A stretch of DNA of 52,618 nucleotides from a virus, in the IMG/VR virus record IMGVR_UViG_3300009826_000007, positions 1-52,618 of that record; one strand, given 5' to 3'. Within the stretch, counting starts at the first letter, position 1, and every line of letters begins with the position of its first letter. The position numbers and the translations under genes are program-made. The notes under the pieces are model-generated. The model did not search any database. It was given only the letters and a program-made list of their open reading frames with translations, and was not told the DNA's origin. This document shows, piece after piece, positions 34,582-51,176 of the stretch.

Positions 34582-34834
34582 TATTATCATTCTCCATTGC
34601 AATTTTATCCATAACAACCGCAACATCTAAAATTACATCATCAAACGGGCGTATTACCCCATTGTCATCATACAACCTAACCCCGATTCTGTTTACGGCG
34701 GTTTTTATTTTTTCAGTTGCGCTTGAACCGTCAATAAAAGCCCAATCTATGTCTTTGTTTTCAAATTCTTTTTCTAAATCAACACATCTGTCCACCAAAT
34801 GTTTTCTAAAATTAGTAATATCATCATGTGTCAT
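34574..34834 (-). CDS. Hypothetical acidic protein (86 aa)
   Basis: ORF immediately upstream of int. Confidence 0.5.
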   Translation of the reverse strand: MTHDDITNFRKHLVDRCVDLEKEFENKDIDWAFIDGSSATEKIKTAVNRIGVRLYDDNGVIRPFDDVILDVAVVMDKIAMENDNNA

Positions 34835-34889: not shown

Positions 34890-35573
34890 TTAAAAAGCAT
34901 CAAATAAACTACGCATCTTTTCCGTTTTTTGCGTGTCCGTTTCGGTATCCCTTTCGGTGTCCTTTTCGGTGTCCTTTTTGGTGTCCATTATGGTTCCCTC
35001 TTTTGTACCTATTTCGGCACCCATTTGCGTTCCCATTTTGGCATCCTCTTTGATACCCATTTTGGTATCCGTTTTGGCAAGTTGTTGCATTTGTTGCGCT
35101 ATTTGGGGCGTTTTTTCAACAAAATCCCGTTTGGTATCATTTACGGTGTCCATTTTGGTTCCCTTTTCGGTATCCATTTGAGTATCTTTTTTGGTGCCCG
35201 TTATGGTATCTGTTTTAGTTCCCTTTTCGGTGTCCGTTATGATACCATTTTTAGTATCCATTTCAATGCCCATTTGCGACTGATTTACAGCCGCAAATGA
35301 GTTAATTGTGTAAACAGTGGATTGACTTCCCTTACGCGTTTCATATTCAATCAGACCCAACGCCTGCAATTCATTCCTGGCAACCCAGATTACCTTTCTG
35401 CTAAGGCTGGTCTTAGATTCAAGCACGGAAAGCCTTAGTTCAAAAGTGCATTGCCCACGTTTGTATGCGAAAAGTGCTAACGTATGCCATAAATTGATAG
35501 ATGAATGACGTACAGACCGCGCTTCCCTAAAATTGTCAAACGCTAATGTCTCAAAAATAAGATCATAATCCAT
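34890..35573 (-). CDS. Winged-helix-like N-domain plus a D/T/K tetrapeptide-repeat tail (candidate ParM adaptor)
   Basis: The N-terminus is SLSRKVIWVARNELQALGLIEYETRKG. The tail is DTEKGTKTDTITGTKKDTQMDTEKGTKMDT...DTEKDTERDTETDT. It lies directly downstream of the parM-like gene. Confidence 0.65.
   Translation of the reverse strand: MDYDLIFETLAFDNFREARSVRHSSINLWHTLALFAYKRGQCTFELRLSVLESKTSLSRKVIWVARNELQALGLIEYETRKGSQSTVYTINSFAAVNQSQMGIEMDTKNGIITDTEKGTKTDTITGTKKDTQMDTEKGTKMDTVNDTKRDFVEKTPQIAQQMQQLAKTDTKMGIKEDAKMGTQMGAEIGTKEGTIMDTKKDTEKDTERDTETDTQKTEKMRSLFDAF
34933..35285. repeat. 12-bp periodic tandem repeats (consensus GTRTCCnTTTYG), two blocks
   Basis: Twelve consecutive units span 34933-35076, for example gtgtccgtttcg, gtatccctttcg, gtgtccttttcg. 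A second block spans about 35133-35285. All three plus-strand frames are open here. Confidence 0.85.
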
Positions 35574-35581: not shown

Positions 35582-36574
35582 CTATGCCTTTTTGCTCATC
35601 TGGTTGTATGCCGCCAAATAACCCTTTGCGTTAGCAAAAATATCATCCTCAAAATATGCATCACCTATCATTCCGGTGTCTAAAATATATTTTTTTAATG
35701 CTATTGCACCACCGCCAACAAAAATTGTATAATCTTCGCGTAAGTCAATACCCTGTTGAGATACCGCTGCTAGTAGCTTCACGGTTAATTTTTGTGTGAG
35801 ATCAAAAACAAGTGCCTGTCGCTCGTTTGAGCAGCCATTTAGGGATTTGGCCTTTTTCTGAATAATGCCCTCAATGTTGCTATCCGTCATTCTTTTCCCT
35901 ATTTTTGCGTTAATTCGGCTGTTTACCTCGTCCAACAATATATTAACGCCAATGTACAGGGATTCCACTATGTCTGGTTGTCCGTTATTAATTCGTATGC
36001 AATCCACAGTGTAACCGCCTATGTCTACAATGTTTACAGTGTCACGACTGTCAACAATAGCCCATAGGTGGTTTAATGCTGTTGTGGCAACGCCCTGGGG
36101 ATAGACATGCACGTTGGTGATTTTTATAATCATGGGTGTATCGTTAATACGAAAACTAATTTGCTTGCCTTCACGTTGGAAATATTTTGCAAATTTTGCG
36201 CCGATTTCCTTTTTGTGCATTGGCGGTACCCCAACCAACAAATCAATTTCAACATATCCATCCTGCACCATTTCCTTATAACAATTCAAATCGGCTAAAA
36301 CTTGCTTCCCGATGGCAAACAATGTCAACAAAAAATAATCATCATCGGCGGTCTTGTCATCTTTTTGGTAAAATCGGCAGTCTACTAACGTGTATTCTTT
36401 GCCATTAAAATCTAATCTATCGCCGCCATGACTGCCCTGGATGGTGCTATCAATAAAACTGGATGCAAAATTAATACAAATCAATTTGCCTTTTTCCCCG
36501 GGCAAGCTGGTTGACAATGCGCTACACGACTTTGTGCCTCTATTGCCGTGGTCTATTGCTACTATTTTTTTCAT
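35582..36574 (-). CDS. ParM/Alp-family actin-like segregation ATPase
   Basis: Actin-fold motifs are AIDHGNRGTK (phosphate 1), VDIGGYTVD (phosphate 2) and FVGGGA (adenosine). Confidence 0.8.
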   Translation of the reverse strand: MKKIVAIDHGNRGTKSCSALSTSLPGEKGKLICINFASSFIDSTIQGSHGGDRLDFNGKEYTLVDCRFYQKDDKTADDDYFLLTLFAIGKQVLADLNCYKEMVQDGYVEIDLLVGVPPMHKKEIGAKFAKYFQREGKQISFRINDTPMIIKITNVHVYPQGVATTALNHLWAIVDSRDTVNIVDIGGYTVDCIRINNGQPDIVESLYIGVNILLDEVNSRINAKIGKRMTDSNIEGIIQKKAKSLNGCSNERQALVFDLTQKLTVKLLAAVSQQGIDLREDYTIFVGGGAIALKKYILDTGMIGDAYFEDDIFANAKGYLAAYNQMSKKA

Positions 36575-36761: not shown

Positions 36762-37118
36762 TTATACATTTAAAACCTCATCGCTATTTTGCTCAAAATT
36801 GCAATTTTCGCTTTCTGGTTCATCAATTGATGTACTTTTTTTTAAAATGTCAAGCATATTCTCGAAAATTTCAAAAATTTTACACAAATTGTAGTTTATT
36901 TCTTGAATCTCTACTTGCAAATCCTCAATTTTTTTTTCTTGTTTTGAAATAGTTCTAGTTACTTTTGCAATGTCTTTTCCAATTAACTCGCTATTAGCAA
37001 TCGCAAATTCAAGAGATTCTTGCCTTGCTTCCATTATTTGTGTTTGGTTTTTCATATACAACTTATTAATCGTAGAAGCGTAGGTTAAAACTTCATCAAT
37101 TTTTTTTCCATACCACAT
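36762..37118 (-). CDS. Coiled-coil protein (118 aa)
   Basis: ORF with heptad-like character. Confidence 0.55.
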   Translation of the reverse strand: MWYGKKIDEVLTYASTINKLYMKNQTQIMEARQESLEFAIANSELIGKDIAKVTRTISKQEKKIEDLQVEIQEINYNLCKIFEIFENMLDILKKSTSIDEPESENCNFEQNSDEVLNV

Positions 37119-37136
37119 GATTAATTTTGTCCTCTA

Positions 37137-37835
37137 CTATTTGGCTGATTCCCCGTAAAGTTCATTTGCTAGTTTGATGTACAAAAAATATTCGTCAATA
37201 TATTTTTCTGCATTAGCCTCTTTTGCTATAGCTTTATAAGATTTTAACCATTCTTCAAGTGTGTGAATTTGACATCCAATTTTCAACTTGTTTCTGGATA
37301 CCATACATACAGACATCCTTGAGCCTTGAATATACAAGGGGGAAGTTCTCCATATGTCCTTATTCACCCACGCCGAGCCGGTTACATACGTCGAGTCGCA
37401 TATACGCGCCGAGCCGAATACACGCGCTGAACCGGATATACGCGCCAAGTCGGATACACGCGCCAAGTCGGATACACGCGCCGAACCGAATACACGCGCC
37501 GAACCGAATACACGCGCCGAACCGAATACATGCGCCAAACCGGATACACGCGCCGAACCGGATACACGTGCAAAGTCGGATACATGTGCCAAGTCGGATA
37601 CATGTGCCGAGTCGGATACACACGCCGATTTGGTTGCAACCGCTAAATTGGATACAACCCCATCATCAGCAACCCATGCTTTATCTAACAAATTGTATTC
37701 GGATTCAATCCAACCGCCAATATCTCCGGCACTAATCGTAAAAGCCCCATTTTCAAATGAATTTACGCATCTAATGCGCTGCACTAGTCTCCCATTTACT
37801 TCTTTAGTTTCGCCCGTAAACTCCCATTTTTTCAT
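37137..37835 (-). CDS. Beta-helix (hexapeptide-repeat) protein, paralog 1
   Basis: The N-domain is MKKWEFTGETKEVNGRLVQRIRCVNSFEN...GDIGGWIESEYNL. About 15 hexapeptides follow (GSARVF, GSARVS, DLARVS...). The C-domain is unique (PLYIQGSRMSV...IGCQIHTLEEW). Confidence 0.8.
   Translation of the reverse strand: MKKWEFTGETKEVNGRLVQRIRCVNSFENGAFTISAGDIGGWIESEYNLLDKAWVADDGVVSNLAVATKSACVSDSAHVSDLAHVSDFARVSGSARVSGLAHVFGSARVFGSARVFGSARVSDLARVSDLARISGSARVFGSARICDSTYVTGSAWVNKDIWRTSPLYIQGSRMSVCMVSRNKLKIGCQIHTLEEWLKSYKAIAKEANAEKYIDEYFLYIKLANELYGESAK
37369..37638. repeat. About 15 tandem 18-bp repeats (cgcgccgaaccgaataca-type) encoding the hexapeptide beta-helix
   Basis: Units were read off at 18-bp steps from 37369. 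Three consecutive units are identical (37477-37530). Confidence 0.9.
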
Positions 37836-37963
37836 TTTTTCAACCTGTCGAGCTGCTCAAAATGTGTATGCGGTTCTGAAAACGATTTGCATTTTTCGCA
37901 TTTAGTCATTCCGCGCAATGCCATTTTTTTAGCATAGCAGATTAAATCTTCAATTCTTTTCAT
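37832..37963 (-). CDS. 43-aa protein coupled between the methyltransferase and beta-helix genes
   Basis: Translates as MKRIEDLICYAKKMALRGMTKCEKCKSFSEPHTHFEQLDRLKK. There are ATGA overlaps at both ends. Confidence 0.5.
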   Translation of the reverse strand: MKRIEDLICYAKKMALRGMTKCEKCKSFSEPHTHFEQLDRLKK

Positions 37964-38544
37964 ATACCACAATTCCTTTCTACTTCTGCAATTGCCGCTA
38001 AAATCGGGTATATTTGCTGTGGTACAACGGCGTTGCCCACAAAAAATACTCGTGATCGTCTGTGGGGCGCTCCGACAGCCGCAGCCTCATAATTAAAAAT
38101 CCCGATGTCATAGCCTTCACGTTCCAAATCCTGACAAATTGTGTCCCCGGCAATTGGCAAAATTCCAGGTACGTTTTCAACCAATACCCAATGCGGCGCA
38201 AATTCCCGGATAATTCTGCACATTTCTGGCCATAAATAACGTCCATCCCCTTTTCCCTTTTGTTTTCCTGCCACGGAAAAGGGGGTGCATGGTGGGCCTC
38301 CGGAAATAATGTCAACTGTTCGGGAACCTGTTCGTTTGTAAAATGATTCTGCTGTGACATCTTTTATGTTCCTCCACCGCGGCACATTCGGCCAATGTTT
38401 TTCTAAAATTTTTGTCGGATAATCGGAAATTTCACATTGTCCAACAGTTTTAAAACCTGCCCATTCAGCGGCAATGTCAATGCCTCCAATGCCCGAAAAA
38501 AGGCTAAAATGTGTTAGTTTTTCCTGATTCATAAACATCACCAC
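37960..38544 (-). CDS. DNA (cytosine-5) methyltransferase catalytic core lacking a target-recognition domain
   Basis: Motifs seen are FSGIGG (I), GGPPCTPFS (IV), ENVPG (VI), and HRRSRVFFVG (VIII) running straight into GNAVVPQ (X). The protein is only 194 aa. Confidence 0.8.
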   Translation of the reverse strand: MVMFMNQEKLTHFSLFSGIGGIDIAAEWAGFKTVGQCEISDYPTKILEKHWPNVPRWRNIKDVTAESFYKRTGSRTVDIISGGPPCTPFSVAGKQKGKGDGRYLWPEMCRIIREFAPHWVLVENVPGILPIAGDTICQDLEREGYDIGIFNYEAAAVGAPHRRSRVFFVGNAVVPQQIYPILAAIAEVERNCGI

Positions 38545-38629
38545 ACTTTTGTATTTTCATAAATCGTCTACTCTTTCTCTACTGGAATCCATTTGTATTA
38601 TATAACTTTCATTTTTTGGCCTATAATTA

Positions 38630-38998
38630 TTAGTCTCCTTTTTTTCTGCTATATTTTTCACGATATTCCTTTTGTTGTTTGCGTATTTTTTCGGTGTTTT
38701 TTAAGTAATATTCCCGCTGATATTGTAATATTTGTTCTTTGTTTTTTTCATAACGCGCCCTGTTATATGCAGAATTTTTGTTTTTTCGTGTTTTTTGATG
38801 TGCTAAAATTCGTGTGCGATTTTCGTTATAATATTGTCTATTGCGTTCTGAAATTCGCGCTTTATTGCGCTCATAATATTCCTTTTTTTTCTGCCTGACC
38901 CTATCGCGATTTGCGACATAATAGGCCTTATAGTATTGCAATCTCTTAGTTTTAGATATTCTTGCCAATATCATTTGCACATCCATAACGGCGCTCAA
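38630..38998 (-). CDS. Basic repeat protein (YY-x-N-K/R periodic repeats)
   Basis: KEYYERNKARISERNRQYYNENRTRI...REYYLKNTEKIRKQQKEY. Confidence 0.6.
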   Translation of the reverse strand: MSAVMDVQMILARISKTKRLQYYKAYYVANRDRVRQKKKEYYERNKARISERNRQYYNENRTRILAHQKTRKNKNSAYNRARYEKNKEQILQYQREYYLKNTEKIRKQQKEYREKYSRKKGD

Positions 38999-39519
38999 AC
39001 CTCCCGGAAATCAATGTCTGGATTCTGAAACTCAAATAGGTTCCTTTTGACCACATATGTCCGATTTTTCGCAGTTATAGGACTTTTTACATCCTCGACA
39101 ACAACTTTTTTTCCCTGGAAATATTCAAAATCAGCGGAATAGGTCACCGCCCGGCGTTTGTCTGTTTTTGGCACAATTACAAATTTTGGATGTGTTTTTA
39201 AATTAGATATTACGCCGTCCGCTTCCAACAATTTTAGTTCTTGATACCTGTTGGCCTCCTTTTTTGATGCAAATGTTATACCATCTATTACCATTTCAAC
39301 ATTCCTATATTTTTTTGGCATGTTTGACCGCCTCTTTCCCAACTTTCTCTCAATTTCATCATGTAATATTAAATACAATATGCATTTTTTGCTTAATTGT
39401 TGGTAAATTTCTTCTATTTCTTCTTGCTGATACCTGTCTTCTTTGCTATTTTCGGGGAAATTGTGTCCAATAAACCAAATGTCAATATCGCATAACATAT
39501 TTTCAAAATATATTTTCAT
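38995..39519 (-). CDS. DUF1064-like nuclease (putative resolvase)
   Basis: GITFASKKEANRYQELKLLEADGVISNL...YSADFEYF...VVEDVKS...YVVKRNLF matches the DUF1064 pattern as I recall it. The true start may be the internal MPKKYRN. Confidence 0.65.
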   Translation of the reverse strand: MKIYFENMLCDIDIWFIGHNFPENSKEDRYQQEEIEEIYQQLSKKCILYLILHDEIERKLGKRRSNMPKKYRNVEMVIDGITFASKKEANRYQELKLLEADGVISNLKTHPKFVIVPKTDKRRAVTYSADFEYFQGKKVVVEDVKSPITAKNRTYVVKRNLFEFQNPDIDFREV

Positions 39520-39539
39520 ATATTTTCCCTTTCCAAATT

Positions 39540-39758
39540 TTAACTCTTACAAACGCCCTCCAATTGCTCGTATGTTGCCAGGTATAACCGCCCGCTTTCT
39601 TCCAAAAATTGGTTACGTAGGCTTTGAAATTTCATGTCAAAATCAATCAAAATATTTCTTATCTCATCCGGCGTGTATTGGTATGTTACATTTTCAAACC
39701 TGCCAATATTTTCAAATGTTATCATAATTTCACTCCCTGTTTTCATTCTAACTGGCAT
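39540..39758 (-). CDS. Hypothetical (72 aa)
   Basis: GGGAG RBS. It is the first ORF after the 330-nt leader. Confidence 0.5.
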   Translation of the reverse strand: MPVRMKTGSEIMITFENIGRFENVTYQYTPDEIRNILIDFDMKFQSLRNQFLEESGRLYLATYEQLEGVCKS

Positions 39759-40071
39759 TGAGACGCTCTATTTTGCGTTTTAAACCTCGTCTAACTTGCT
39801 TAACGTGATTTCCATACAAATAAACTCGGAAGCGCTGGAAAGCCCTTTTATTCGCGTCTGATAGCACAAACAAATTTATGTAGTCAATTCGATTCTCTTA
39901 TTGCCCTATGGCTCTGTGACCCTTTCTAAACTTTTCGGGATGCTATCACGCATATAGCGCTGAAACACATTTATTTACGTTTTAAACCATGTTAAACACG
40001 TTAGACGTAATTTTGCACACAAAATATTAGGGACGCTCAAACCCCCCCTTTATTCGCATCTGGAGGCATAT

Positions 40072-40220
40072 GTGCAGCGCCTGGTTTGGACACGCTGCAA
40101 CTGTTCTAATGTTTCGCGATGTCGTTCAACATCCATTGACACCATTGTATACCATAAATAAAATGGTGTCAAGCGTTTTTTTTAAAAAAATTAACTTTTT
40201 TTGCTGGAAATTTTTTGAAG
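40072..40220 (-). promoter_or_regulatory. Repeat cassette copy 1 (palindromic promoter/operator plus leader hairpin)
   Basis: - The core 40118-40202 is identical to the other two copies.
- Inverted repeat ttgacaccatt (40136-40146) / aatggtgtcaa (40162-40172).
- Minus strand TTGACA-17-TACAAT; plus strand TTGACA-17-TAAAAT.
- GC hairpin gcagcg...cgctgc. Confidence 0.7.
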
Positions 40221-40227
40221 GATTTTT

Positions 40228-41124
40228 TTATGCGTCCAAAAGTTCAAGCAATGCCTTTTTGTTTTCCATGCCATTGTGAATGCGCCAACTTTTTCCAGTA
40301 ACTTCAAAATTCGCACAAATTTCGACAATCCGATTGTAAATTCTGTCGGATGTATCGCGTTTACCGGTTCGTGCATCCACTATGGATAAATTTTCCCGCA
40401 ACTCGTTTAGATCCAAATTGGTTGTGACGATAAGCGGTTTTTTTGCCCGTGAGCGTGTATCTATAACACTGTAAATTTTTTCATATGACCAATATGATTT
40501 TTGTTCAATGCCTAAATCATCCAAAATTAGAAGTTCGGCATCGCGGATCGCGTTAAGTATTTCAATCTCTCGGACATTTTCATTACTGCCATATTTTACA
40601 TAACCGTCCTGAATGATTTTTAAAATTCTGCCTGCAGAAATAGCCAAAACTGTTACGCCTCGTCGGTGCAGTTCGTTAGCAATTGAATACGATAAATATG
40701 TTTTTCCATTGCCGGATACACCATGCAAAAGTAACCCGCGATTATTGGCAAAAATTTCAGGCCATTTATCACAATATTTTTTCCCGATGTCGTAGAGTTT
40801 TTGATTGTCCCTAAAAATCCAATTGTCAAAGGTTGAGTTCTTAAAATTTTTGTCCGCAAGCGAATATTCACGATAACGATCCAATTTTCTGTCAAAATCC
40901 CGTTGCGCTGTTATTCGCCTGATTTCGTCAAATTCTGCCCGCTGACATTCACATGCAATTCTCATTCTGCGAATAAAATCACCAATTTTGATGTCTGTTT
41001 GCATCGGTTTAAGGCATTCGTCACAAATTTCAATCGGTTTGTTAAATTTTTGTTGATGTGATACATGCATATTCATCTGGTTCATTATTGGCATTTCTGC
41101 CAGAATTGCTCCCACCGAATTCAT
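40228..41124 (-). CDS. DnaC/IstB-like helicase-loader ATPase
   Basis: Walker A is LLLHGVSGNGKT and Walker B is ELLILDDLG. The N-terminus has Cys pairs. The start is uncertain because it overlaps the upstream gene. Confidence 0.8.
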   Translation of the reverse strand: MNSVGAILAEMPIMNQMNMHVSHQQKFNKPIEICDECLKPMQTDIKIGDFIRRMRIACECQRAEFDEIRRITAQRDFDRKLDRYREYSLADKNFKNSTFDNWIFRDNQKLYDIGKKYCDKWPEIFANNRGLLLHGVSGNGKTYLSYSIANELHRRGVTVLAISAGRILKIIQDGYVKYGSNENVREIEILNAIRDAELLILDDLGIEQKSYWSYEKIYSVIDTRSRAKKPLIVTTNLDLNELRENLSIVDARTGKRDTSDRIYNRIVEICANFEVTGKSWRIHNGMENKKALLELLDA

Positions 41125-41923
41125 ATACTTTTCCTCCTTTTGTTTTTATTTGATCCCAAACAATACCCTGCCAATTATTGGACATGCAATTATTAATGGC
41201 ATCAATAACGGCATTTTCCCCAAAATCGGCGGCGTTTTTCTGGATTTTATTTAACAACGATTTTAATCCCGTGGGTTTGTACGCTAAATTTTTTTCGGTT
41301 TTATATTGCAAAAAATTATCCACAGCATCGCCTAACGAATCGCTAAAAACGTAATTATTGCGTATGTCCGCAGTCTTTTCTTTGTCTTTTTTTGGAAAAT
41401 TTTTAGGTTTATTCTCCCTCCCCCCCCCAAGGGGTTTATCTTTAATATCTAAACCTAAACCTAAACCTAAACCTAAACCTGGGGCCCCCATTCCGGTTCC
41501 ATGTTGGTTCCATTCTGGTTCCATTCCGGTTCCATCCTGTCCCCATTCCGGTTCCATTCCGGTTCCATGTTTTAAATAATAACAACCTTCAATTTCATGC
41601 AATAATTTTTTTTCGTTTTGGTGTATGGTCGGGTTATATCGGTCTTTTTTTATATAATTGTGTTGCTTCCAGTGCGAAATAACAACAACTCCGCTGTTTA
41701 AACCGTGGTCATCGAATGAAATAATAAAATTTTTATCAGCTAACACTTTCAGGTCATCACTATTCGCCCCAATCATACGGGCAATGGCTTTTGCGTTTCC
41801 TAAAAAACCATCGTCATCGGCCCGCATGTTTAGATCATAATATAATAAACGTGCAGCCATCGGCATATCCATAAAATCATCTGTGTTAATTTTATCCTTT
41901 GCGATCATCCGTCTACCTGCCAT
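41042..41923 (-). CDS. Replication initiator / replisome organizer (DnaD-like C-terminal domain)
   Basis: The N-domain is MIAKDKINTDDFMDMPMAARLLYYDLNMRADDDGF. A repetitive linker follows (GTGMEPEW repeats, GLGLGLGLGL). The C-terminus is AVIDAINNCMSNNWQGIVWD. It lies upstream of the DnaC-like gene. Confidence 0.7.
   Translation of the reverse strand: MAGRRMIAKDKINTDDFMDMPMAARLLYYDLNMRADDDGFLGNAKAIARMIGANSDDLKVLADKNFIISFDDHGLNSGVVVISHWKQHNYIKKDRYNPTIHQNEKKLLHEIEGCYYLKHGTGMEPEWGQDGTGMEPEWNQHGTGMGAPGLGLGLGLGLDIKDKPLGGGRENKPKNFPKKDKEKTADIRNNYVFSDSLGDAVDNFLQYKTEKNLAYKPTGLKSLLNKIQKNAADFGENAVIDAINNCMSNNWQGIVWDQIKTKGGKVYEFGGSNSGRNANNEPDEYACITSTKI
41495..41566. repeat. Iteron array 1: GGTTCC at exact 11-bp phasing inside the organizer gene
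   Basis: GGTTCC occurs at 41495, 41506, 41517, 41528, 41550 and 41561. A degenerate GTCCCC occupies 41539. Confidence 0.9.
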
Positions 41924-42159
41924 TATTCACCTCGATTTGTCCACAATTTGCGTAGTTCATAGGTTTTTAACCATGCCACAATTCTACCGGGTTTATCGGC
42001 ACCCCCCGGCCATCCATATAATTCGCAATTTGCTAGGTATTCTTGCATTTTCTCAACTGGTAAAATTTCCAATGTAAAACCCCCATAGTTATCCAAAATA
42101 GAACCGCGTTGCGTCCAATGTTTCCTCCAAATATTCCTCCAATTCCCACGGAATGCCAT
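41923..42159 (-). CDS. Hypothetical; probably shorter (internal Met at 42048)
   Basis: The track ORF overlaps the upstream gene by 71 nt. Starting at MQEYLANCELYGWPGG removes the overlap. Confidence 0.4.
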   Translation of the reverse strand: MAFRGNWRNIWRKHWTQRGSILDNYGGFTLEILPVEKMQEYLANCELYGWPGGADKPGRIVAWLKTYELRKLWTNRGE

Positions 42160-42436
42160 TGTCTATGCTGAAAACGCAAACATCACCTTCGACACAATTA
42201 TCAATTATTGATGAATCTGCACAACATTTTCTTAACAATTCTCTCAGTTTGCCTCTATCTTTTGTTTTTGTCGCGATACAATTATCGCCTATTTGAAAAT
42301 CTTCACCCACCAATCCAACTCCTACATCTTTCAAATACTTATAGATTTCGCGTACTGACATATCGGCCAAATCATCATTTTGAATGATGTAGCAGGACGA
42401 TGAGGAATTTGTCACAAAATCATGTCTGTATTTCAA
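42089..42436 (-). CDS. Acidic 115-aa protein with a TNSSSS motif; homologous to the C-domain of beta-helix paralog 2
   Basis: CYIIQNDDLADMSVREI...EGDVCVF...YLEETLDATRFYFG aligns with CYIIKDEYFANMSLREI...NGDVCIF...YLMESWGATQYCFG. Confidence 0.65.
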   Translation of the reverse strand: MKYRHDFVTNSSSSCYIIQNDDLADMSVREIYKYLKDVGVGLVGEDFQIGDNCIATKTKDRGKLRELLRKCCADSSIIDNCVEGDVCVFSIDNGIPWELEEYLEETLDATRFYFG

Positions 42437-42614
42437 TTTCTTGATCCTCCACGCTGTCCACGGTGGGATATCCGACCTTTAATAATGCTTGATAAATTTG
42501 GAATGACATAGAAGCACCGTGCGAATCTTTTCGTTTTTTCAATTCGTTTAACATACTCATAGGCAACCAGATTGACGTTCTTTTCTTGCCCGCGCATTCT
42601 TGTTTGTTTGTCAT
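42420..42614 (-). CDS. Ribbon-helix-helix (CopG/Arc-like) DNA-binding protein
   Basis: KRTSIWLPMSMLNELKKRKDSHGASMSFQIYQALLK fits a beta strand followed by two helices. Confidence 0.6.
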   Translation of the reverse strand: MTNKQECAGKKRTSIWLPMSMLNELKKRKDSHGASMSFQIYQALLKVGYPTVDSVEDQEIEIQT

Positions 42615-42631
42615 TTATAACACTCCTTTCA

Positions 42632-42871
42632 TCAATCATCCTGCGGCATTTGAAAATATTGGGTGTCCGTGGAAGACAACCAGGCGGCCAACTCGTCCAT
42701 TACTTTTTTCGTGGTGGTTACGTCATCGTAACAACCCAGAAAATGTCTTTCTTTTTCACCAAAATAGATGTGAATGAAAAAATCGCTATTTATGGACGGC
42801 ATCACTACAATGTTTGTAAATTTGCGTATTGGAATAATTTGACTTTTGTCCTGTGTAAATATTGTTCTCAT
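42632..42871 (-). CDS. Hypothetical (79 aa)
   Basis: AAGGAG lies 5 nt before ATG 42871. The track start is 42889. Confidence 0.55.
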   Translation of the reverse strand: MRTIFTQDKSQIIPIRKFTNIVVMPSINSDFFIHIYFGEKERHFLGCYDDVTTTKKVMDELAAWLSSTDTQYFQMPQDD

Positions 42872-42978
42872 TTTTTCTCCTTTTTTCACTTTTTTTTAAA
42901 ATGTGAAGCCCCAGCCGGGGTTGTCCCCACAGGGGGGGGACGCGCCGGGGCTTTTCCTTCGCCTTTAAATTTTCAATG

Positions 42979-43857
42979 TTATCCAAAACAATATTGTGTT
43001 GCGCCCCACGATTCCATCAAATAATTATTAACATCGCCAAATGTGTATTCGGCTGGATTAAAAATACAAACATCGCCATTTTCGCAGAAACTAAGTATCA
43101 CATCGATGTCGTCATCACTGCCACCATATTGGTGAATTAATTTAATTAAATTTTTCTTGTATTTCATTCGCGTTACAAAGTACAAGTAATCCATTTTGTA
43201 TCCTGTTAATGTTTCGCATTGCTTCGCGTCATAACCTGTTAATGCTTCGACTGCAAAATGCTTTCGGATTTCACGCAATGACATATTTGCAAAATACTCG
43301 TCTTTGATTATATAACATTTTGATTTTTGCGCGGGTTCAGCGCCCAGAGATGTTTCCGGCGTATCATCATCATCGGACACCCGCATATTACCGCACACCT
43401 GCATGTTTCCGCATATTTCCGCATGGCCGAACACCACGCCATTATTACACACCACTGCATTACCATATACCTGTGAATCCCCGTACACCTGCGAATCCCC
43501 GTACACCTGCGAATCCCCGTACACCATTGAATTATTACGTACCACCGCATTATCGAAAACCCACGCATAATCGAAAACCTGCGAACAATCGCGTACCTGC
43601 GCATCACCGCACACCCACGAATCACCGCGTATCCACGCATCACCGGACGCTATCGCGTTATCGAACACACACGCATCACCGGACACCCACGCATTTTCAA
43701 TTAAATTGTCCTCAGACTCGATCCAACCGCCTATTTCCCCGGTATCAACAGTTACATTTTTATTTTCAAATGAATTTACGCATATAATGCGCTGCAATGT
43801 TCTGCCATCTAATTTTTTTGTTTCGCCCGTGAATTCCCAATTTTTCATTTTCGCCAT
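42979..43857 (-). CDS. Beta-helix (hexapeptide-repeat) protein, paralog 2
   Basis: The real start is MAKMKNWEFTGETKKLDGRTLQRIICVNSFEN, after AAAAGGAG. The track ORF runs upstream through the promoter cassette. Hexapeptides include VYGDSQ x3. Confidence 0.8.
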   Translation of the reverse strand: MAKMKNWEFTGETKKLDGRTLQRIICVNSFENKNVTVDTGEIGGWIESEDNLIENAWVSGDACVFDNAIASGDAWIRGDSWVCGDAQVRDCSQVFDYAWVFDNAVVRNNSMVYGDSQVYGDSQVYGDSQVYGNAVVCNNGVVFGHAEICGNMQVCGNMRVSDDDDTPETSLGAEPAQKSKCYIIKDEYFANMSLREIRKHFAVEALTGYDAKQCETLTGYKMDYLYFVTRMKYKKNLIKLIHQYGGSDDDIDVILSFCENGDVCIFNPAEYTFGDVNNYLMESWGATQYCFG

Positions 43858-43888
43858 TTTATTTTCTCCTTTTCTCATCCTTATGTGT

Positions 43889-44025
43889 GGTGCAGCGCTA
43901 GGTTTGACACGCTGCACCTGTTCGCGATGTCGTTCAACATCCATTGACACCATTGTATACCATAAATAAAATGGTGTCAAGCGTTTTTTTTAAAAAAATT
44001 AACTTTTTTTGCTGGAAATTTTTTG
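43889..44025 (-). promoter_or_regulatory. Repeat cassette copy 2
   Basis: The core 43926-44010 is identical to the other copies. The inverted repeat is at 43944-43954 / 43970-43980. It lies 32 nt upstream of ATG 43857. Confidence 0.75.
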
Positions 44026-44035
44026 CTGGTTTGTT

Positions 44036-45025
44036 TTAATATTGCCCAATAATCCCATTTGCTTTTAATGCTGCGAAAATTCGGACTAAGGAACCCTTGA
44101 AGCCTATAACATCGTCCGGGTCATGCTCGCCTGTTAACCTTTTTGTTTCGCGTAACTCGTCCCGGATTTCTTTGGCGATGTCTAATTCGAACCGCACGCC
44201 CCGGAATATATCTTCTTTGAGTTTTTGTATTGCCTGTTCACAGTTTATTTCCGTCATTTTGATGTGCATTTTTGCGCCCTCGCGAATGTTGGCTATTTCT
44301 TCGTCTTTGGCAGATAATTCTGCTTCAAATTTTTTGTTGTTGGCTACAATTTCCGCATTGCGATCTATTCTATTTGTATCGTGTAGACGGCTGATTCTAT
44401 TACTTATTTCGGTTCTGCGATCCATCGTCTCTTTAATTCGCGCATTTTCTGCCTTCAACTCACGGATTTCGGCCTCTTGGCGCTCGATCAATCCCTCACA
44501 TCCAATGATTTCGGGTGCAGGCGTGTTATCATTTAATTGTCTAACGCCATTTTTATATATTGTGAGTTCAACTGGTTTTTTCGATTGCATGGTTTTGTCT
44601 GGCAAAAATTTGTATTGAATCCATTTGTCGTTGCCACCAATTTCACAATTGCCGCCTGCTGTATTAATCACCGACGCGTTGCCGGTTATTTTAGAATCCC
44701 AAATTTCCGATTCGTGGACAGCTGCAGAATTGTCAACAGTTGTGTTGATTATTGATGTATTTTTTGCAATAAATGCACAACCGTAAACCATAGAATCGCT
44801 ATCCAACCACGCGTTATATCGCAAATTGGCATCAATTTGAATCCAACCGCCCATTTCCCCGGTTTTAACAATCACGTTTTTATTTTCAAATGATTTTATG
44901 CAATGTATTTGTCGCAATCTTATTTTTGCCAGCCCCCCTGTAATTTTACAGGGGATTGACACTATTTTTGTTTCGCCCGTATAATCCCAGGTTATTCCTC
45001 TGTTTGATTTTTGCATTTTCGCCAT
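44036..45025 (-). CDS. Beta-helix N-domain protein, paralog 3, with a C-terminal coiled coil
   Basis: MAKMQKSNRGITWDYTGETK...IHCIKSFENKNVIVKTGEMGGWIQ, followed by a long charged helical region. Confidence 0.75.
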   Translation of the reverse strand: MAKMQKSNRGITWDYTGETKIVSIPCKITGGLAKIRLRQIHCIKSFENKNVIVKTGEMGGWIQIDANLRYNAWLDSDSMVYGCAFIAKNTSIINTTVDNSAAVHESEIWDSKITGNASVINTAGGNCEIGGNDKWIQYKFLPDKTMQSKKPVELTIYKNGVRQLNDNTPAPEIIGCEGLIERQEAEIRELKAENARIKETMDRRTEISNRISRLHDTNRIDRNAEIVANNKKFEAELSAKDEEIANIREGAKMHIKMTEINCEQAIQKLKEDIFRGVRFELDIAKEIRDELRETKRLTGEHDPDDVIGFKGSLVRIFAALKANGIIGQY

Positions 45026-45061
45026 TTTTTTTCTCCTTTTTCGCTCATCCTGTGGGGTGGA

Positions 45062-45203
45062 GTGCAGCGCCTGGTTTGGACACGCTGCACCTGCTCAAAC
45101 GATGTCGTTCAACATCCATTGACACCATTGTATACCATAAATAAAATGGTGTCAAGCGTTTTTTTTAAAAAAATTAACTTTTTTTACTGGAAATTTTTTG
45201 AAG
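45062..45203 (-). promoter_or_regulatory. Repeat cassette copy 3
   Basis: The core 45101-45185 is identical to the other copies. The inverted repeat is at 45119-45129 / 45145-45155. It lies upstream of ATG 45025. Confidence 0.75.
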
Positions 45204-45216
45204 GTCTGTTTTTCCC

Positions 45217-45465
45217 CTATTTTGCGCGTTTTTCCATATATTCAACCAATGCGGGGGTCGCCCGCCATGATACGGCACCCGTCATGTTTACCGCCCCGAT
45301 GTCAATCAATGTGGTGAAAATGTCAAACATCAAATAACGGTCGATGTTTAATAATGCTGGGGAACGTGCAGCTTTTAACGTTACATTGCCCGCTGTGATG
45401 AAATTGGGTAATTTTGGGTATCGGTCAAACAATATTTCCAGTCGTTCAATATTTTTTTCATCCAT
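45217..45465 (-). CDS. Hypothetical (82 aa)
   Basis: ORF overlapping the stop of the MCM-like gene by 8 nt. Confidence 0.55.
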   Translation of the reverse strand: MDEKNIERLEILFDRYPKLPNFITAGNVTLKAARSPALLNIDRYLMFDIFTTLIDIGAVNMTGAVSWRATPALVEYMEKRAK

Positions 45466-47338
45466 TTATTTTATTTCCCCCGTCTATTTGTTCGATTATA
45501 TCAATCAGTATTTTTTCAGGTCGATAAGTGGAGCTGGATTGGATAGTTATTAATTTGCGTTTAATCATGTTAACCAGTATTTGCGATCCAATAATTTGAG
45601 TTGTTTCATTATTTAATGCGTTTAAGAAATTTATTCCCCGGAATATGGGTGTGGTTAATATTGCCTTCACGCCTGGGTGCAATTGTAAAAGTTCACGTAT
45701 GAAAATAATATTTTGGTTTCGTATTTCGCGCATTCGTTTTAATTCCTGCACGTAAATGCTGTAACTCATAGACCGTTTGGACAAACAAAATTCTAAAAAT
45801 TCAATGGCAAAATTTAGGTGTTTTTCTACAATTATGAGCTGTCCGCCTTTTATCGACCCCAATAATACAGCGAAAGCGCATGATAATCGTAGTAATTTTT
45901 CATGTGCCGTCATGCCAACAATAAATGGGGTTCCGCCCATTTCATCGTTAATGTAATCGGCGGCATCGTGCAGGTTATTTTTAAAATTATCATCGTAACA
46001 AATGTCGTTGGCCGCCATTGTCCACGCCTGTTTTATTAACGTCCGCCAATTGTCTACATTGATTTCGTAAAAATTTTCAATTTTTTCAAATGTATTTGTA
46101 TTTGTATCTAAATCTACATCTAAATCGCTGTACGCGGCGGAAATGACTAAATCAAATTGTGATTGTCCTTTGGCATTTGGAATAAAATCCTGAAATGCGC
46201 CGTATCCCTTCCAGAAAAAATCCTGAATGTCTGCATTATTTTTGGGCGTGGCCAACCAAATTAACCGGGTACGTGTTTTCGCCTCGCCCTGCACGATGCC
46301 ATCGAATGCGATTGATTCCGTATTGCAGGCATTTACAATATTTCGGATGTCGTATGGATCGATCCTGTTGGCATTCCCAATTGCCAATAACCCACGGTCA
46401 TTATTCGGAAACGCCCCCCATGTGACAAATTTTGATTGGCCAAATTGTTGTGTTTTCCCAATAATGTTGGTTTCCCCATTTGTATATTCGCCCATCCCGA
46501 TTACATCCACAAAACGCTGCACCATTTGTGTTTTGCCAATTTTTGTATCACCGATACAAATTGTATTTAACCGCCCGCGAATAGTTTTATTTTCCCACGG
46601 AATCCTGTCCACAGAACAATATGTCAAAATCATAGCGCCAAATAAATCAATACGCCCCTCGATTTCTAATACTGGCAACCATTTTTTGTAAAAAAATTCG
46701 AAAAGTTCAATGGCGCTATTCGCCGCATTAGCAACCGCCTGGATGCTGGCTAATTCTTTTTTCCGTAAAAGTGGCGCAAATTTTCCGGGCCGATCAAGCC
46801 GTTTGACATCACGAATTAAATAACATTCCATTTTTGTGTTAGGGTCAACAACTTTCATAGCTGTCAAATTATATTTTCGTGTCGGAAATAACCGTTGCAT
46901 TTTGTGTACATACATACCAAATTTGCATTTGTCAGCGGGCGAAGCCATGTTTTGAAAAACAATTTTTTGTACATTGGTATATTCAATCGGCGTTATTTTT
47001 ACTTTCTCGCATCTGAATTTTTTTTTCGCAAATTCACGCCATGCCCGCGCCCCGCGATTAACATAATCAACTGTGTTTTGAATTGGCAAAATTATAATCT
47101 CTTCTTTTTTGAATTTTGGGGCCAATATGCATTTTTTCCTGCAGTTTTTTATTTTGCATTCGCATTTAATTTTTGTTGGAATAACATAATTTTCGGGGTC
47201 TACGCCGATAACTGTTACGTTGTCAAATTTGATTCGGCGGGTTGTTTTTTCTGTTGTTTCAACAATATCATCATTCAAATTGCCTTGTCCTCCTTTCGGT
47301 TCCGGTCTGGTTCCATTTCGGTTCCGGTCTGGTTCCAT
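45458..47338 (-). CDS. MCM-like AAA+ protein with an N-terminal Zn/OB-like region
   Basis: GDTKIGKTQ corresponds to the MCM Walker A, and ...TRLIWLATPK to the sensor region. SQFDLVI sits where MCM has SRFDLIF. CECKIKNCRKKC is a Cys cluster. An alternative start is TTG 47278 after AAAGGAGG. Confidence 0.6.
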   Translation of the reverse strand: MEPDRNRNGTRPEPKGGQGNLNDDIVETTEKTTRRIKFDNVTVIGVDPENYVIPTKIKCECKIKNCRKKCILAPKFKKEEIIILPIQNTVDYVNRGARAWREFAKKKFRCEKVKITPIEYTNVQKIVFQNMASPADKCKFGMYVHKMQRLFPTRKYNLTAMKVVDPNTKMECYLIRDVKRLDRPGKFAPLLRKKELASIQAVANAANSAIELFEFFYKKWLPVLEIEGRIDLFGAMILTYCSVDRIPWENKTIRGRLNTICIGDTKIGKTQMVQRFVDVIGMGEYTNGETNIIGKTQQFGQSKFVTWGAFPNNDRGLLAIGNANRIDPYDIRNIVNACNTESIAFDGIVQGEAKTRTRLIWLATPKNNADIQDFFWKGYGAFQDFIPNAKGQSQFDLVISAAYSDLDVDLDTNTNTFEKIENFYEINVDNWRTLIKQAWTMAANDICYDDNFKNNLHDAADYINDEMGGTPFIVGMTAHEKLLRLSCAFAVLLGSIKGGQLIIVEKHLNFAIEFLEFCLSKRSMSYSIYVQELKRMREIRNQNIIFIRELLQLHPGVKAILTTPIFRGINFLNALNNETTQIIGSQILVNMIKRKLITIQSSSTYRPEKILIDIIEQIDGGNKING

Positions 47339-47380
47339 TTCGGTTCCATTCTGGTTCCATTCTGTCCCCGTTCCGGTTTC
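47298..47380. repeat. Iteron array 2: GGTTCC at exact 11-bp phasing at the 5' end of the MCM-like gene
   Basis: GGTTCC occurs at 47298, 47309, 47320, 47331, 47342 and 47353. Degenerate units follow at 47364 (GTCCCC) and 47375. The 24-mer at 47353-47376 matches 41528-41551 with 2 mismatches. Confidence 0.9.
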
Positions 47381-47387
47381 GGATATT

Positions 47388-47422
47388 AAAAACGCCCTAA
47401 GCGGGCGCGGTTGTTTTTTTTA
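47388..47422 (-). terminator. Short GC hairpin flanked by A and T runs (bidirectional-terminator-like)
   Basis: The minus strand reads A8-caaccg-cgccc-gctta-gggcg-TTTTT. It lies about 30 nt after the stop at 47440. Confidence 0.4.
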
Positions 47423-47439
47423 AATTAGATTTTTTGAAA

Positions 47440-48857: not shown

Positions 48858-48878
48858 AGCACATACTCCAGGCTTTTT

Positions 48879-49067: not shown

Positions 49068-49101
49068 TTATTTCCTCCAGGGGGCTAAATAATTGCAACC
49101 C

Positions 49102-49396: not shown

Positions 49397-49414
49397 ATTC
49401 CACAACTTTCCAAA

Positions 49415-51167: not shown

Positions 51168-51176
51168 AAATTCCCC

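What the first reader, a model, noticed from the sequence alone, without database searches (positions are those of the whole stretch)
37137..45025. Three-member family of hexapeptide beta-helix proteins with a shared N-domain and swapped C-terminal modules
What the sequence shows:
- 37137..37835, 42979..43857 and 44036..45025 all begin with W(E/D)(F/Y)TGETK...R(I/Q)(R/I/H)C(V/I)(N/K)SFEN...G(D/E)(I/M)GGWI(E/Q).
- Each then runs into 6-residue repeats: GSARVF/DLARVS, VYGDSQ/VCGDAQ, and a looser set in paralog 3.
- This pattern is typical of a left-handed beta-helix.
- The C-termini differ. Paralog 1 has a globular domain with IGCQIHTLEEW. Paralog 2 has a domain homologous to the free-standing ORF 42089..42436. 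Paralog 3 has a long coiled coil.
- Paralogs 2 and 3 each have their own strong promoter cassette. Paralog 1 is translationally coupled behind the TRD-less methyltransferase.
- The repeat DNA is near-perfect 18-bp tandem sequence, about 15 units at 37369-37638. That makes copy-number change by slippage likely.

Interpretation: no acyltransferase-type active-site region is evident. A regular, in places acidic, beta-helix expressed from dedicated promoters could act as a nucleic-acid mimic, decoy or filament, for example in anti-defence or superinfection exclusion. This is speculation.
Basis: partly seen in the sequence, partly recalled or inferred. Interest (0 to 1): 0.72.

Follow-up and report, generated by a model that had tools for sequence, protein, structure and literature searches.

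The report
Three slippage-prone phage beta-solenoid paralogs
A phage carries three related early genes for rod-shaped beta-helix proteins from a widespread family of unknown function, and the rods of two of them change length by exactly one 18-base repeat unit between otherwise identical copies of the phage genome.

Summary
Three minus-strand genes share a ~50-residue N-terminal cap, a 6-residue-period beta-helix and different C-termini: P1 37137-37835, P2 42979-43857, P3 44036-45025.

They belong to a catalogued but uncharacterised family: PHROG 5070/7964, with a family profile matching Salmonella YdcK (PDB 2F9C) at E 2.7e-31. The family is common in phage early regions, and other phages carry tandem arrays of up to 8 copies.

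P1 has the family's commonest C-domain. P2's C-domain is a near-orphan, with 2-3 relatives among 1.84 billion representatives, one being the window's own ORF 42089-42436. P3 ends in a long charged tail, probably helical.

The new result concerns the repeats. A second assembly of the same phage matches the 15.8 kb early region with 0 mismatches and exactly two gaps. Each gap is one 18-nt hexapeptide unit, one in P1 and one in P2. In close family pairs elsewhere, 20 of 23 indels are multiples of 6 residues.

Length tolerance, loop-free coils and no enzyme-level similarity argue against an acyltransferase. Solenoid charge ranges from -20 to +9, so DNA mimicry is not a family-wide mechanism. Function remains unknown. 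An early host-interaction adaptor is the best guess.

The parts
37137..37835 (-). P1, 232 aa: canonical family architecture (N-cap residues 1-52, solenoid 53-160, C-domain 161-232)
   Evidence: ORF. phrog_5070 E 5.6e-42 and phrog_7964 E 2.3e-38. AlphaFold2 pLDDT 80.9, C-domain above 90. C-domain HMM E 3.5e-31.
37371..37628 (-). 18-bp tandem array encoding the P1 hexapeptide coils (14.3 units, 83% matches, 59% GC against 39.7% for the genome)
37513..37530 (-). Polymorphic 18-nt unit in P1 (ARVFGS x3 here, x2 in the second assembly L086)
37832..37963 (-). Small 43-aa ORF between the C5-methyltransferase and P1. Its stop overlaps P1's ATG (ATGA).
   Evidence: Also called as a 43-aa gene in the second assembly.
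42979..43857 (-). P2, 292 aa: N-cap 1-55, acidic solenoid 56-163, acidic linker plus near-orphan C-domain 164-292
   Evidence: AlphaFold2 N-cap and solenoid pLDDT 80-90, C-domain below 50. The true start is ATG 43857 behind AAAGGAG. The longer TTG ORF begins in the -35 box.
43508..43525 (-). Polymorphic 18-nt unit in P2 (GDSQVY x3 here, x2 in L086)
44036..45025 (-). P3, 329 aa: N-cap with insertions (1-71), short degenerate solenoid (72-137), long charged tail, probably helical (138-329)
   Evidence: phrog_5070 E 5e-11, and phrog_492 on residues 179-295. An identical protein, P0126, is in the second assembly.
42089..42436 (-). Free-standing 115-aa homologue of the P2 C-domain (motif DFVTNSSSSCYII)
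   Evidence: Apart from this ORF itself (P0121), the exhaustive profile search found only two plausible homologues (P0122, P0125).
43889..44038 (-). Promoter cassette upstream of P2: A/T-rich tract, TTGACA-17-TACAAT inside the palindrome TTGACACCAT-N17-ATGGTGTCAA, then two 5'UTR hairpins and an RBS
45062..45213 (-). The same promoter cassette upstream of P3
40072..40230 (-). Third copy of the cassette. It drives a ~300-nt ORF-free leader and ORF 39540-39758, not a solenoid gene.
42420..42614 (-). 64-aa ORF in the P2 operon with a weak Arc/ribbon-helix-helix match. It is a candidate binder of the palindromic operator (inference).
   Evidence: Pfam Arc E 0.0021, 18.3 bits against a cut-off of 20.4

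Best explanation
The three genes are paralogous members of the widespread YdcK-like beta-solenoid family of phages (PHROG 5070/7964).

**Architecture.** Each protein has three parts:
- a conserved ~50-residue N-terminal beta cap (KYEFTGETK..G.TL.RIRA..F..V.AGDLGGWIE.E.NL...AWV);
- a left-handed beta-helical rod built from 6-residue units;
- an exchangeable C-terminal module.

**Proposed role.** I read them as non-enzymatic, modular early proteins. The cap plus rod is the constant scaffold or recognition head. The rod is a length-tolerant spacer or oligomerisation element. The C-terminal module gives each paralog its specificity. P1 carries the family's commonest C-domain, P2 a near-orphan domain also encoded separately nearby, and P3 a long charged tail, probably helical.

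**Expression.** P2 and P3 are transcribed from identical operator-containing sigma-70-type promoters. P1 is read through an ATGA overlap from a small upstream ORF.

**Repeat instability.** The rods of P1 and P2 are encoded by homogenised 18-nt tandem DNA. It gains and loses whole units by replication slippage, fast enough that these are the only differences between two otherwise identical genomes.

**Likely function.** Host takeover or counter-defence, by binding a conserved partner.

**Shown:** family membership, architecture, promoters, unit-step length polymorphism.
**Inferred:** non-enzymatic nature, adaptor role, conflict function. The target is unknown.
For: **Family and architecture**
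- PHROG hits E 1e-42.
- A family profile matches YdcK 2F9C at E 2.7e-31 over cap plus solenoid.
- There are 429 homologues and 395 IMG/VR loci with the cap.
- AlphaFold2 models are confident for cap, rod and the P1 C-domain.

**Modularity**
- 55 of 125 cap-bearing relatives carry the canonical C-domain. Others carry different tails or none. P2 and P3 tails are singletons.
- P2's tail has only 2-3 relatives among 1.84e9 representatives.
- Alternative N-caps with the same C-domain exist.

**Rod as a length-tolerant spacer**
- Relatives have from 0 repeats (P0009) to more than 30.
- The second assembly (ENA ERZ27257300, 52,600 nt) matches the 15.8 kb early region with 0 mismatches and exactly two 18-nt gaps, one in P1 and one in P2.
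- The unique genome lengths differ by 36 nt, which equals those two units.
- 20 of 23 indels in 41 close family pairs are multiples of 6 aa: 6, 12, 18 or 24. There is no preference for whole turns.

**Early or conflict context**
- In Ruminococcus phiRM10, Streptococcus Javan246 and CHPC919 the gene lies between the lysogeny switch and the recombination/replication genes.
- In Mycobacterium Boilgate it sits beside methyltransferases.
- In a T7-like Aeromonas phage it lies in the early region upstream of the RNA polymerase.
- Tandem arrays of up to 8 paralogs occur, a pattern typical of diversifying conflict genes (established knowledge, used as inference).

**Promoters:**
Against: - No function has been shown for any family member, YdcK included. 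Literature searches found nothing.
- No PADLOC hit to a defence family; only a marginal coiled-coil-type LmuB match for P3 (E 0.002).
- Neighbour analysis gives only a generic early/replication context.
- Oligomeric state could not be predicted.
- The fold search against PDB was not significant. YdcK was the top hit for P1, but at E 0.26.
- The two 18-nt differences come from assemblies, not reads. Assembler choice between co-existing alleles cannot be excluded, though that would still imply polymorphism.
- Length variation may be neutral rather than adaptive.
Confidence: 0.55

Rival explanations
1. Phage-internal replication/recombination accessory. The solenoid proteins act as scaffolds or loaders within the phage replisome or recombination machinery rather than against the host.
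For: - In the window they are interleaved with the MCM-like helicase, DnaC-like loader, replisome-organiser-like ORF, DUF1064 and AAA_24 genes.
- In relatives they sit next to Erf/Rad52/Gam-like, SSB, DnaB-like and primase genes.
Against: - There is no fixed partner gene across 85 loci.
- Copy number per genome ranges from 1 to 8, with free loss or gain of C-domains. That is unusual for core replication factors.
- The gene is present upstream of the RNA polymerase in a T7-like phage, away from replication genes.
Confidence: 0.18
2. DNA mimic or decoy. The acidic beta-helix of P2 imitates DNA and sequesters a host DNA-binding defence or repair protein.
For: - The P2 solenoid has net charge -10, a DDDD linker and an acidic C-domain. 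Protein pI is 4.4.
- 35% of relatives have solenoids of -5 or lower.
- The gene lies in an early region near methyltransferases.
- Pentapeptide-repeat helices (MfpA/Qnr) are precedents for beta-helical DNA mimics (established knowledge).
Against: - P1's pI is 8.8, with 9 Arg in its rod.
- Family solenoid charge spans -20 to +9, with 36% at or above 0. Mimicry cannot explain the conserved cap or the family as a whole.
- No similarity to Ocr, ArdA or pentapeptide proteins was found.
Confidence: 0.12
3. Polymer-forming (bactofilin-like) cytoskeletal element. It would organise phage DNA or work with the ParM/Alp-like actin encoded at 35582-36574.
For: - NCBI names some relatives 'polymer-forming cytoskeletal protein', and some homologues carry precomputed PF04519 hits.
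- Exposed aromatic ladders (Y/F at hexad position 4) could mediate lateral association.
- An actin-like gene is 0.6 kb downstream of P1.
Against: - None of the three window proteins hits PF04519, even at E of 1 or below.
- Both rod ends are capped by folded domains in the models, which would block end-to-end polymerisation.
- Most relatives occur in phages without ParM.
Confidence: 0.1
4. Left-handed beta-helix acyltransferase that modifies a host or phage substrate.
For: - Weak hits to LpxA/LpxD/GlmU/NeuD models and PDB chains.
- Several database annotations read 'putative acyltransferase'.
Against: - The hits cover only the repeats and reach about 12-23 bits against cut-offs of 161-666.
- There are no insert loops in the coils.
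- Relatives exist with zero repeats (P0009).
- Plus or minus one hexad is tolerated between otherwise identical genomes.
- The only invariant residues lie in the cap and in the GC dipeptide of the C-domain.
Confidence: 0.05

Closest known systems
YdcK (E. coli/Salmonella; PDB 2F9C, 2PIG; NCBIfam NF040481; Pfam PF18836 B_solenoid_ydck)
   Same: - Homologous N-terminal cap and hexapeptide solenoid. Profile match E 2.7e-31, aligning family positions 5-133 to YdcK 15-139.
- Single sequences score 31-39 bits.
- YdcK was the top, though weak, fold match for P1.
   Different: - YdcK is a 326-aa chromosomal protein with a long irregular solenoid and none of the three C-terminal modules.
- The window proteins are far below the equivalog cut-off (350 bits).
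- YdcK's own function is unknown, so membership gives no mechanism.
Uncharacterised phage solenoid proteins of PHROG 5070/7964 (e.g. S. thermophilus Sfi19 orf229, Ruminococcus phiRM10 gp34, Bacillus phiAGATE 'hexapeptide repeat transferase-like', Mycobacterium Boilgate gp64, Lactobacillus LfeInf with 3 copies)
   Same: - P1 has the same three-part architecture at 30-40% identity over 85-100% of its length.
- The same early-region position.
- Multi-copy occurrence in one genome.
   Different: - The C-terminal modules of P2 and P3 were not seen in any of 245 relatives examined.
- The two dedicated identical promoter cassettes are specific to this phage.
Left-handed beta-helix acyltransferases and gamma-carbonic-anhydrase-like proteins (LpxA, LpxD, GlmU, Cam)
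   Same: - Six-residue periodicity with an inward-facing aliphatic residue and small residue.
- A helix-bearing domain follows the solenoid.
- Weak profile matches, E 3e-6 to 0.06.
   Different: - No loops, no conserved catalytic or metal-binding residues, and freely variable coil number.
- The hexad here is A-x-V-x-G-x, with an aromatic or Ser residue in the fourth position.
Bactofilins (PF04519)
   Same: Short-period beta-helical repeat proteins. Some relatives are annotated this way.
   Different: - No PF04519 hit for the window proteins.
- Folded caps at both ends.
- Handedness and polymerisation were not testable here.
Beta-helical DNA mimics (pentapeptide-repeat MfpA/Qnr) and acidic anti-restriction mimics (Ocr, ArdA)
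   Same: A regular, acidic repeat surface in P2, and early phage expression.
   Different: - Period 6, not 5.
- P1 is basic, and family charge is not conserved.
- No sequence or fold similarity.

Membership tests
YdcK-like beta-solenoid family (NF040481 / PF18836 / PDB 2F9C) | N-terminal cap homologous to YdcK residues ~15-60 (..L.RI.A..DF..VKAG..GGW......L...G..W) | tested here: met
   Family profile against PDB: 2f9c E 2.7e-31, domain 1 covering cap plus first coils. Single-sequence NF040481 E 5e-10 (P2), 8e-10 (P1), 1.3e-7 (P3), all aligned from the N-terminus.
YdcK-like beta-solenoid family (NF040481 / PF18836 / PDB 2F9C) | Score at or above the curated cut-offs (NF040481 350 bits; PF18836 30 bits) | tested here: not met
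   31-39 bits against 350. PF18836: P1 27.9, P2 17.0, P3 none. They are therefore relatives, not equivalogs. Most homologues do carry a precomputed PF18836 hit.
YdcK-like beta-solenoid family (NF040481 / PF18836 / PDB 2F9C) | Same three-dimensional fold as 2F9C | tested here: inconclusive
   Foldseek top PDB hit for the P1 model is 2f9c, but E 0.26 and TM 0.23. For the P2 model, 2pig ranks 9th at E 3.5. Model pTM is 0.46, and the cap-to-rod junction has low confidence.
PHROG 5070 / 7964 (phage proteins of unknown function) | Significant full-length match to the family HMM | tested here: met
   P1 5.6e-42 and 2.3e-38. P2 7.5e-43 and 5.5e-42. P3 5.2e-11 and 1.1e-6, N-terminal part only.
Left-handed beta-helix acyltransferases (LpxA/LpxD/GlmU type) | Hexapeptide periodicity forming a left-handed beta-helix | tested here: met
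   Hexad layout. AlphaFold2 strands every 6 residues.
Left-handed beta-helix acyltransferases (LpxA/LpxD/GlmU type) | Family-level similarity including the catalytic region (curated cut-offs) | tested here: not met
   Best is 22.6 bits against 231 (LpxA). PDB hits are E 0.09 or higher for P1 alone and cover only repeats.
Left-handed beta-helix acyltransferases (LpxA/LpxD/GlmU type) | Fixed coil number with insert loops and a conserved catalytic His at a trimer interface | tested here: not met
   No loops in the rods. Coil number runs from 0 to over 30 in relatives and differs by one unit between otherwise identical genomes. No invariant His. Trimer formation itself is not testable here.
Bactofilin (PF04519) | Match to the bactofilin domain model | tested here: not met
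   No PF04519 hit at E of 1 or below for P1-P3. Only some homologues carry a precomputed hit.
Bactofilin (PF04519) | Nucleotide-independent polymerisation | not testable with these tools
   Needs expression plus EM or light scattering.
Protein DNA mimics (Ocr, ArdA, pentapeptide-repeat MfpA/Qnr) | Strongly and consistently acidic surface imitating the DNA backbone | tested here: not met
   P2 is acidic (pI 4.4, rod -10), but P1's pI is 8.8 and P3's is 7.6. Family rods span -20 to +9. For P2 alone the question stays open.
Slippage-prone tandem-repeat (contingency-type) coding loci | Repeat-number differences between otherwise identical genomes, in whole-unit steps | tested here: met
   Two 18-nt gaps and 0 mismatches over 15.8 kb. 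L087 is 100% identical over a further 20.2 kb. 20 of 23 indels in close family pairs are multiples of 6 aa. The changes are in-frame, so this is length variation, not on/off switching.

The most novel reading that the evidence does not exclude
The solenoid rods are true contingency elements of phages. Homogenised 18-nt repeats make rod length the fastest-evolving character of the genome, with two independent unit changes against zero substitutions in ~52 kb. Selection would use this length and register variation, together with paralog arrays and C-terminal module swapping, to track or evade a host defence or target. That would make the YdcK-like family a large, unrecognised class of phage counter-defence or decoy proteins.
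Probability: 0.2. Interest if true: 0.75.

Novelty: new variant of a known kind. Interest (0 to 1): 0.5.

Why it matters
- The family is very common in phage early regions. It has 429 homologues by a word-limited search and 395 IMG/VR loci from one exact motif, and it spans hosts from Firmicutes to Proteobacteria, Actinobacteria and Bacteroidota. A crystal structure of a cellular relative has existed since 2005, yet no function is known.
- This locus offers a compact natural experiment: three paralogs with one constant scaffold and three different C-terminal modules, two under identical promoters.
- It also gives direct evidence that rod length changes in single-hexad steps on a timescale shorter than point mutation. 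That constrains any mechanism. The rod must tolerate 120-degree register shifts between its two ends, which argues against an enzyme and for a spacer or scaffold.
- It points to cheap experiments. If the family proves to be counter-defence, many phage genomes would gain an annotation.

Tried and rejected
- **Close relatives of P1, to compare repeat number.** There is no exact record. No close relatives turned up in viral, genome or metagenome contigs. The second assembly was found only through P3's C-terminal tail.
- **The P0121 look-up failed**.
- **The promoter-cassette 37-mer** has no exact match in viral, genome or metagenome collections.
- **P2 C-domain.** The word-index search found nothing. 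The exhaustive profile search found only 2-3 relatives. The AlphaFold2 model has pLDDT below 50 there, so no fold inference is possible.
- **P1 C-domain.** There is no Pfam or PDB relative. The best PDB hit is E 0.38, to the N-terminus of an HNH endonuclease, and was rejected as chance.
- **A remnant of the canonical C-domain in P3 (IIGCEGL)** was rejected: HMM score -2.9, E 1.8.
- **Foldseek against PDB** was not significant for either model.
- **BFVD** returned only other uncharacterised phage solenoids.
- **PADLOC** found no defence family for the paralogs.
- **Neighbour clustering across 85 loci** found no fixed partner gene.
- **Literature.** Nothing on YdcK function or phage solenoids. 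The polyvalent-protein paper does not mention them.
- **Host identification via terminase** gave only distant hits of 40% identity or less.
- **Megablast of the region against the phage collection** found no match.
- **Rfam** found nothing in the cassettes or leader.

Full report
**Setting**

The window is a complete, circularly assembled phage-like genome. It has an exact 123-nt terminal repeat and 39.7% GC.
- Structural and lysis genes are on the plus strand (1-33 kb). They include terminase, portal, tape measure and amidase, as listed.
- An integrase sits at 33472-34626.
- The early, replication and partition genes are on the minus strand (33-52.6 kb). They include a ParM/Alp-like actin, a short C5-methyltransferase, DUF1064, a DnaC/IstB-like loader, an MCM-like helicase and an AAA_24 protein.
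- All features of the finding lie on the minus strand within this early arm.

**Check of the observation**

The three ORFs are as described.
- The N-termini align with many invariant positions.
- BLASTP gives P1 vs P2 E 1e-39 and P1 vs P3 E 8e-14.
- The hexad register is regular in P1 (18 units from residue 53) and P2 (18 units from residue 56). It is degenerate in P3.
- P2's C-terminal 117 residues align with ORF 42089-42436 at 33% identity, BLASTP E 2e-6.
- P2 and P3 are each preceded by a ~150-nt cassette that occurs three times in the genome: 43889-44038, 45062-45213 and 40072-40230.
- The cassettes share an identical 37-nt core, TTGACACCATTTTATTTATGGTATACAATGGTGTCAA. This is a -35/-10 pair matching 11 of 12 consensus positions, set inside a perfect 10-nt inverted repeat.
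- Two conserved 5'UTR hairpins and a strong RBS follow.

Four details needed correction.
- The 18-bp array has 83% matches, not near-perfect.
- A 43-aa ORF separates the methyltransferase from P1, and it is the gene whose stop overlaps P1's start.
- A third cassette exists.
- P3's coiled coil could not be confirmed. The region is highly charged and almost free of proline, but a crude heptad scan found no clear pattern.

**What the proteins are**

Evidence for family membership:
- All three hit phrog_5070 and phrog_7964, both of unknown function.
- All three hit the NCBIfam YdcK model from its N-terminus, far below its equivalog cut-off.
- A word-limited search found 429 homologues, none above ~56% identity.
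- An alignment of 39 members (A3) shows a conserved cap, a variable number of hexads and a ~65-residue C-domain with an invariant Gly-Cys (SPLYIQGS....IGC..HT..EW, or the variant GCF.G..EF...V..THGDN). One member, P0009, has no hexads at all, and others have more than 30.
- The A3 profile matches the structural-genomics structure of Salmonella YdcK (2F9C/2PIG) at E 2.7e-31 over cap plus rod. The next hits are LpxA at 3e-6 and gamma-carbonic-anhydrase-like proteins near 1e-4, on repeats only.

Structure prediction:
- AlphaFold2 models P1 with pLDDT 80.9. It shows a beta-rich cap, an uninterrupted solenoid, and a C-domain of four strands and two helices at pLDDT above 90.
- P2's cap and rod are confident, but its C-domain is not.
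- Foldseek against PDB is not significant. YdcK is top for P1 at E 0.26.
- Foldseek against BFVD finds only other unannotated phage solenoid proteins, including three in Lactobacillus phage LfeInf.

C-terminal modules:
- The P1 C-domain has no Pfam or PDB relative.
- The P2 C-domain has, besides the window's own ORF 42089-42436, only two credible relatives among 1.84 billion representatives. Both are free-standing and share the motif DFVTNSSSSC[YF].
- The P3 tail matched only its own copy in a second assembly.

**Family-wide picture**

One exact cap motif retrieved 395 confirmed IMG/VR loci. Findings from the 85 loci held:
- 13 carry two or more cap-bearing ORFs, with tandem arrays of 7-8.
- 55 of 125 cap proteins have the canonical C-domain. 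The members of the large arrays have none. Other tails recur, including a coiled-coil-like one paired with a canonical paralog in L001/L017.
- Cap and C-domain can each be replaced independently. N-termini of the type W.QH.NGGGWV occur with the canonical C-domain.

So C-terminal swapping and paralogy are general traits of the family. P2's and P3's particular modules are unique so far.

In annotated phages the gene lies early.
- It follows cro, antirepressor or excisionase and precedes Gam/Rad52/Erf/SSB and replication genes.
- It sits beside two methyltransferases in Mycobacterium phage Boilgate.
- It lies upstream of the RNA polymerase in a T7-like Aeromonas phage.

**The repeat DNA is unstable, shown directly**

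P3's tail led to ENA ERZ27257300 contig k141_3732126, of 52,600 nt.
- Its locus L086 aligns to window 36821-52618 with 0 mismatches and exactly two gaps, and to window 1-2521 without any difference.
- The first gap is window 37513-37530 (TGTATTCGGTTCGGCGCG). The window has ARVFGS x3 and L086 has x2, so P1 is 232 aa here and 226 aa there.
- The second gap is window 43508-43525 (GGTGTACGGGGATTCGCA). The window has GDSQVY x3 and L086 has x2.
- Locus L087 from the same contig is 100% identical to window 16780-36961.
- After removing terminal overlaps (123 and 141 nt), the unique genome lengths are 52,495 and 52,459. They differ by 36 nt, which is exactly the two units. This is arithmetic.
- A third dataset (Logan SRR10512955) is 100% identical over 21 kb of the other arm.

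Both indels fall in the run of identical or near-identical units in each gene, as slipped-strand mispairing predicts.

The behaviour is general.
- Among 41 family pairs of at least 85% identity, 19 differ by internal indels, and 20 of 23 indels are 6, 12, 18 or 24 residues.
- One pair shows 0 substitutions plus one 6-residue gap.
- Steps of one hexad are the most frequent (9 of 23). A hexad is one third of a turn, so the rotational register between cap and C-terminal module is evidently unconstrained.
- The repeat tracts are also compositionally distinct, at 53-59% GC in a 39.7% GC genome. Synonymous positions are homogenised across units, which indicates ongoing concerted evolution.

**Mechanism**

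- *Shown:* family, architecture, promoters, unit-step length polymorphism, modular ends.
- *Inferred, with fair confidence:* the rod is not catalytic. The coils have no insert loops, no conserved His, and only repeat-level similarity to enzymes. Copy number runs from 0 to over 30 and changes by one unit between otherwise identical genomes.
- *Inferred, with lower confidence:* the conserved cap is the recognition head for a partner conserved across bacterial phyla, or a phage partner. The C-terminal modules add paralog-specific activities. The proteins act early in host takeover or counter-defence. This rests on early position, neighbouring methyltransferases, tandem expansions and rapid diversification.

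The DNA-mimic idea remains possible for the acidic P2 only. It fails as a family mechanism because rod charge spans -20 to +9 and P1 is basic. Filament formation is disfavoured by folded caps at both ends and by the absence of a bactofilin-model hit.

**Novelty and score**

The kind is already catalogued (Pfam PF18836, NCBIfam YdcK_fam, PHROGs, PDB 2F9C), and multi-copy occurrence is common. The finding is therefore not categorically new. Four things are new:
- two architectures, the P2 fusion to a near-orphan domain that is also encoded separately 0.5 kb downstream, and the P3 charged tail;
- co-regulation by triplicated identical promoter cassettes;
- direct evidence of simultaneous single-unit length changes in two paralogs against a background of zero substitutions;
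- a family-wide pattern of hexad-step indels.

Function is still unknown. Interest is moderate: a good experimental target rather than a surprise.

Noticed in passing
window 40072-40230 and 39760-40070 (minus strand): The third copy of the promoter cassette drives a ~300-nt stretch with no ORF. That stretch holds two copies of CAGAYGCGAATAAARGG ... GGTTTAAAACG and precedes the small ORF 39540-39758. It could be a non-coding RNA, a leader or an origin-like element. There is no Rfam match.
   Followed up: partly
window 43944-43980, 45119-45155, 40136-40172: The promoter core is a perfect palindrome (TTGACACCAT-N17-ATGGTGTCAA), so it also reads as a TTGACA-17-TAAAAT promoter on the plus strand. 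This looks like an operator for a dimeric repressor, or a bidirectional promoter. All three 5'UTRs share the hairpins GAUGUUGAACGACAUC and GUGCAGCG..CGCUGCAC.
   Followed up: partly
window 42420-42614 (minus strand): A 64-aa ORF in the P2 operon has a sub-threshold Arc/ribbon-helix-helix match (E 0.002). It is a candidate autoregulator for the palindromic operator.
   Followed up: partly
window 37960-38544 (minus strand): The C5 cytosine methyltransferase is only 194 aa and matches Pfam DNA_methylase positions 3-161 of 324. The target-recognition half is missing, yet the sequence ends with a GNAVVPQ-like motif. The second assembly's gene call is 4 aa shorter (190 aa), although the DNA there is identical, so it is not an assembly error.
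   Followed up: partly
window 41459-41587 and 47284-47401: Arrays of an 11-nt repeat (GGTTCCATTCC-like) occur in two places. One is inside the replisome-organiser-like ORF 41042-41923. The other is at the 5' end of the MCM-like helicase gene 45458-47338. They are iteron-like and may mark the replication origin. By coordinate arithmetic the Logan contig of the same phage appears to break at the second array.
   Followed up: no
window 34890-35573 and 35582-36574 (minus strand): A 227-aa ORF built from ~20 copies of a 12-nt repeat (peptide TDTxKGTK) lies directly downstream of a ParM/Alp-like actin gene and next to the integrase. It may be a partition adaptor or centromere, which would hint at a plasmid-like prophage lifestyle.
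   Followed up: no
window 1-123 and 52496-52618: An exact 123-nt terminal direct repeat shows the window is a circular, or circularly permuted, assembly. Its unique length is 52,495 nt.
   Followed up: yes
L055, L058 (one 152.6-kb IMG/VR contig), L066, L077: Other phages carry tandem arrays of 5-8 cap-plus-solenoid paralogs, all lacking the canonical C-domain. This is an extreme expansion of the same family.
   Followed up: partly
L001 9238-9930 and L017 9152-9862: A paralog with a coiled-coil-like tail sits immediately upstream of a canonical family member, which parallels P3 and P2 here. The L001 and L017 copies differ by 0 substitutions and one 6-residue gap.
   Followed up: partly
window 3710-3783 (plus strand): A tRNA-Gln (anticodon UUG) is encoded among the small genes upstream of the terminase.
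   Followed up: yes
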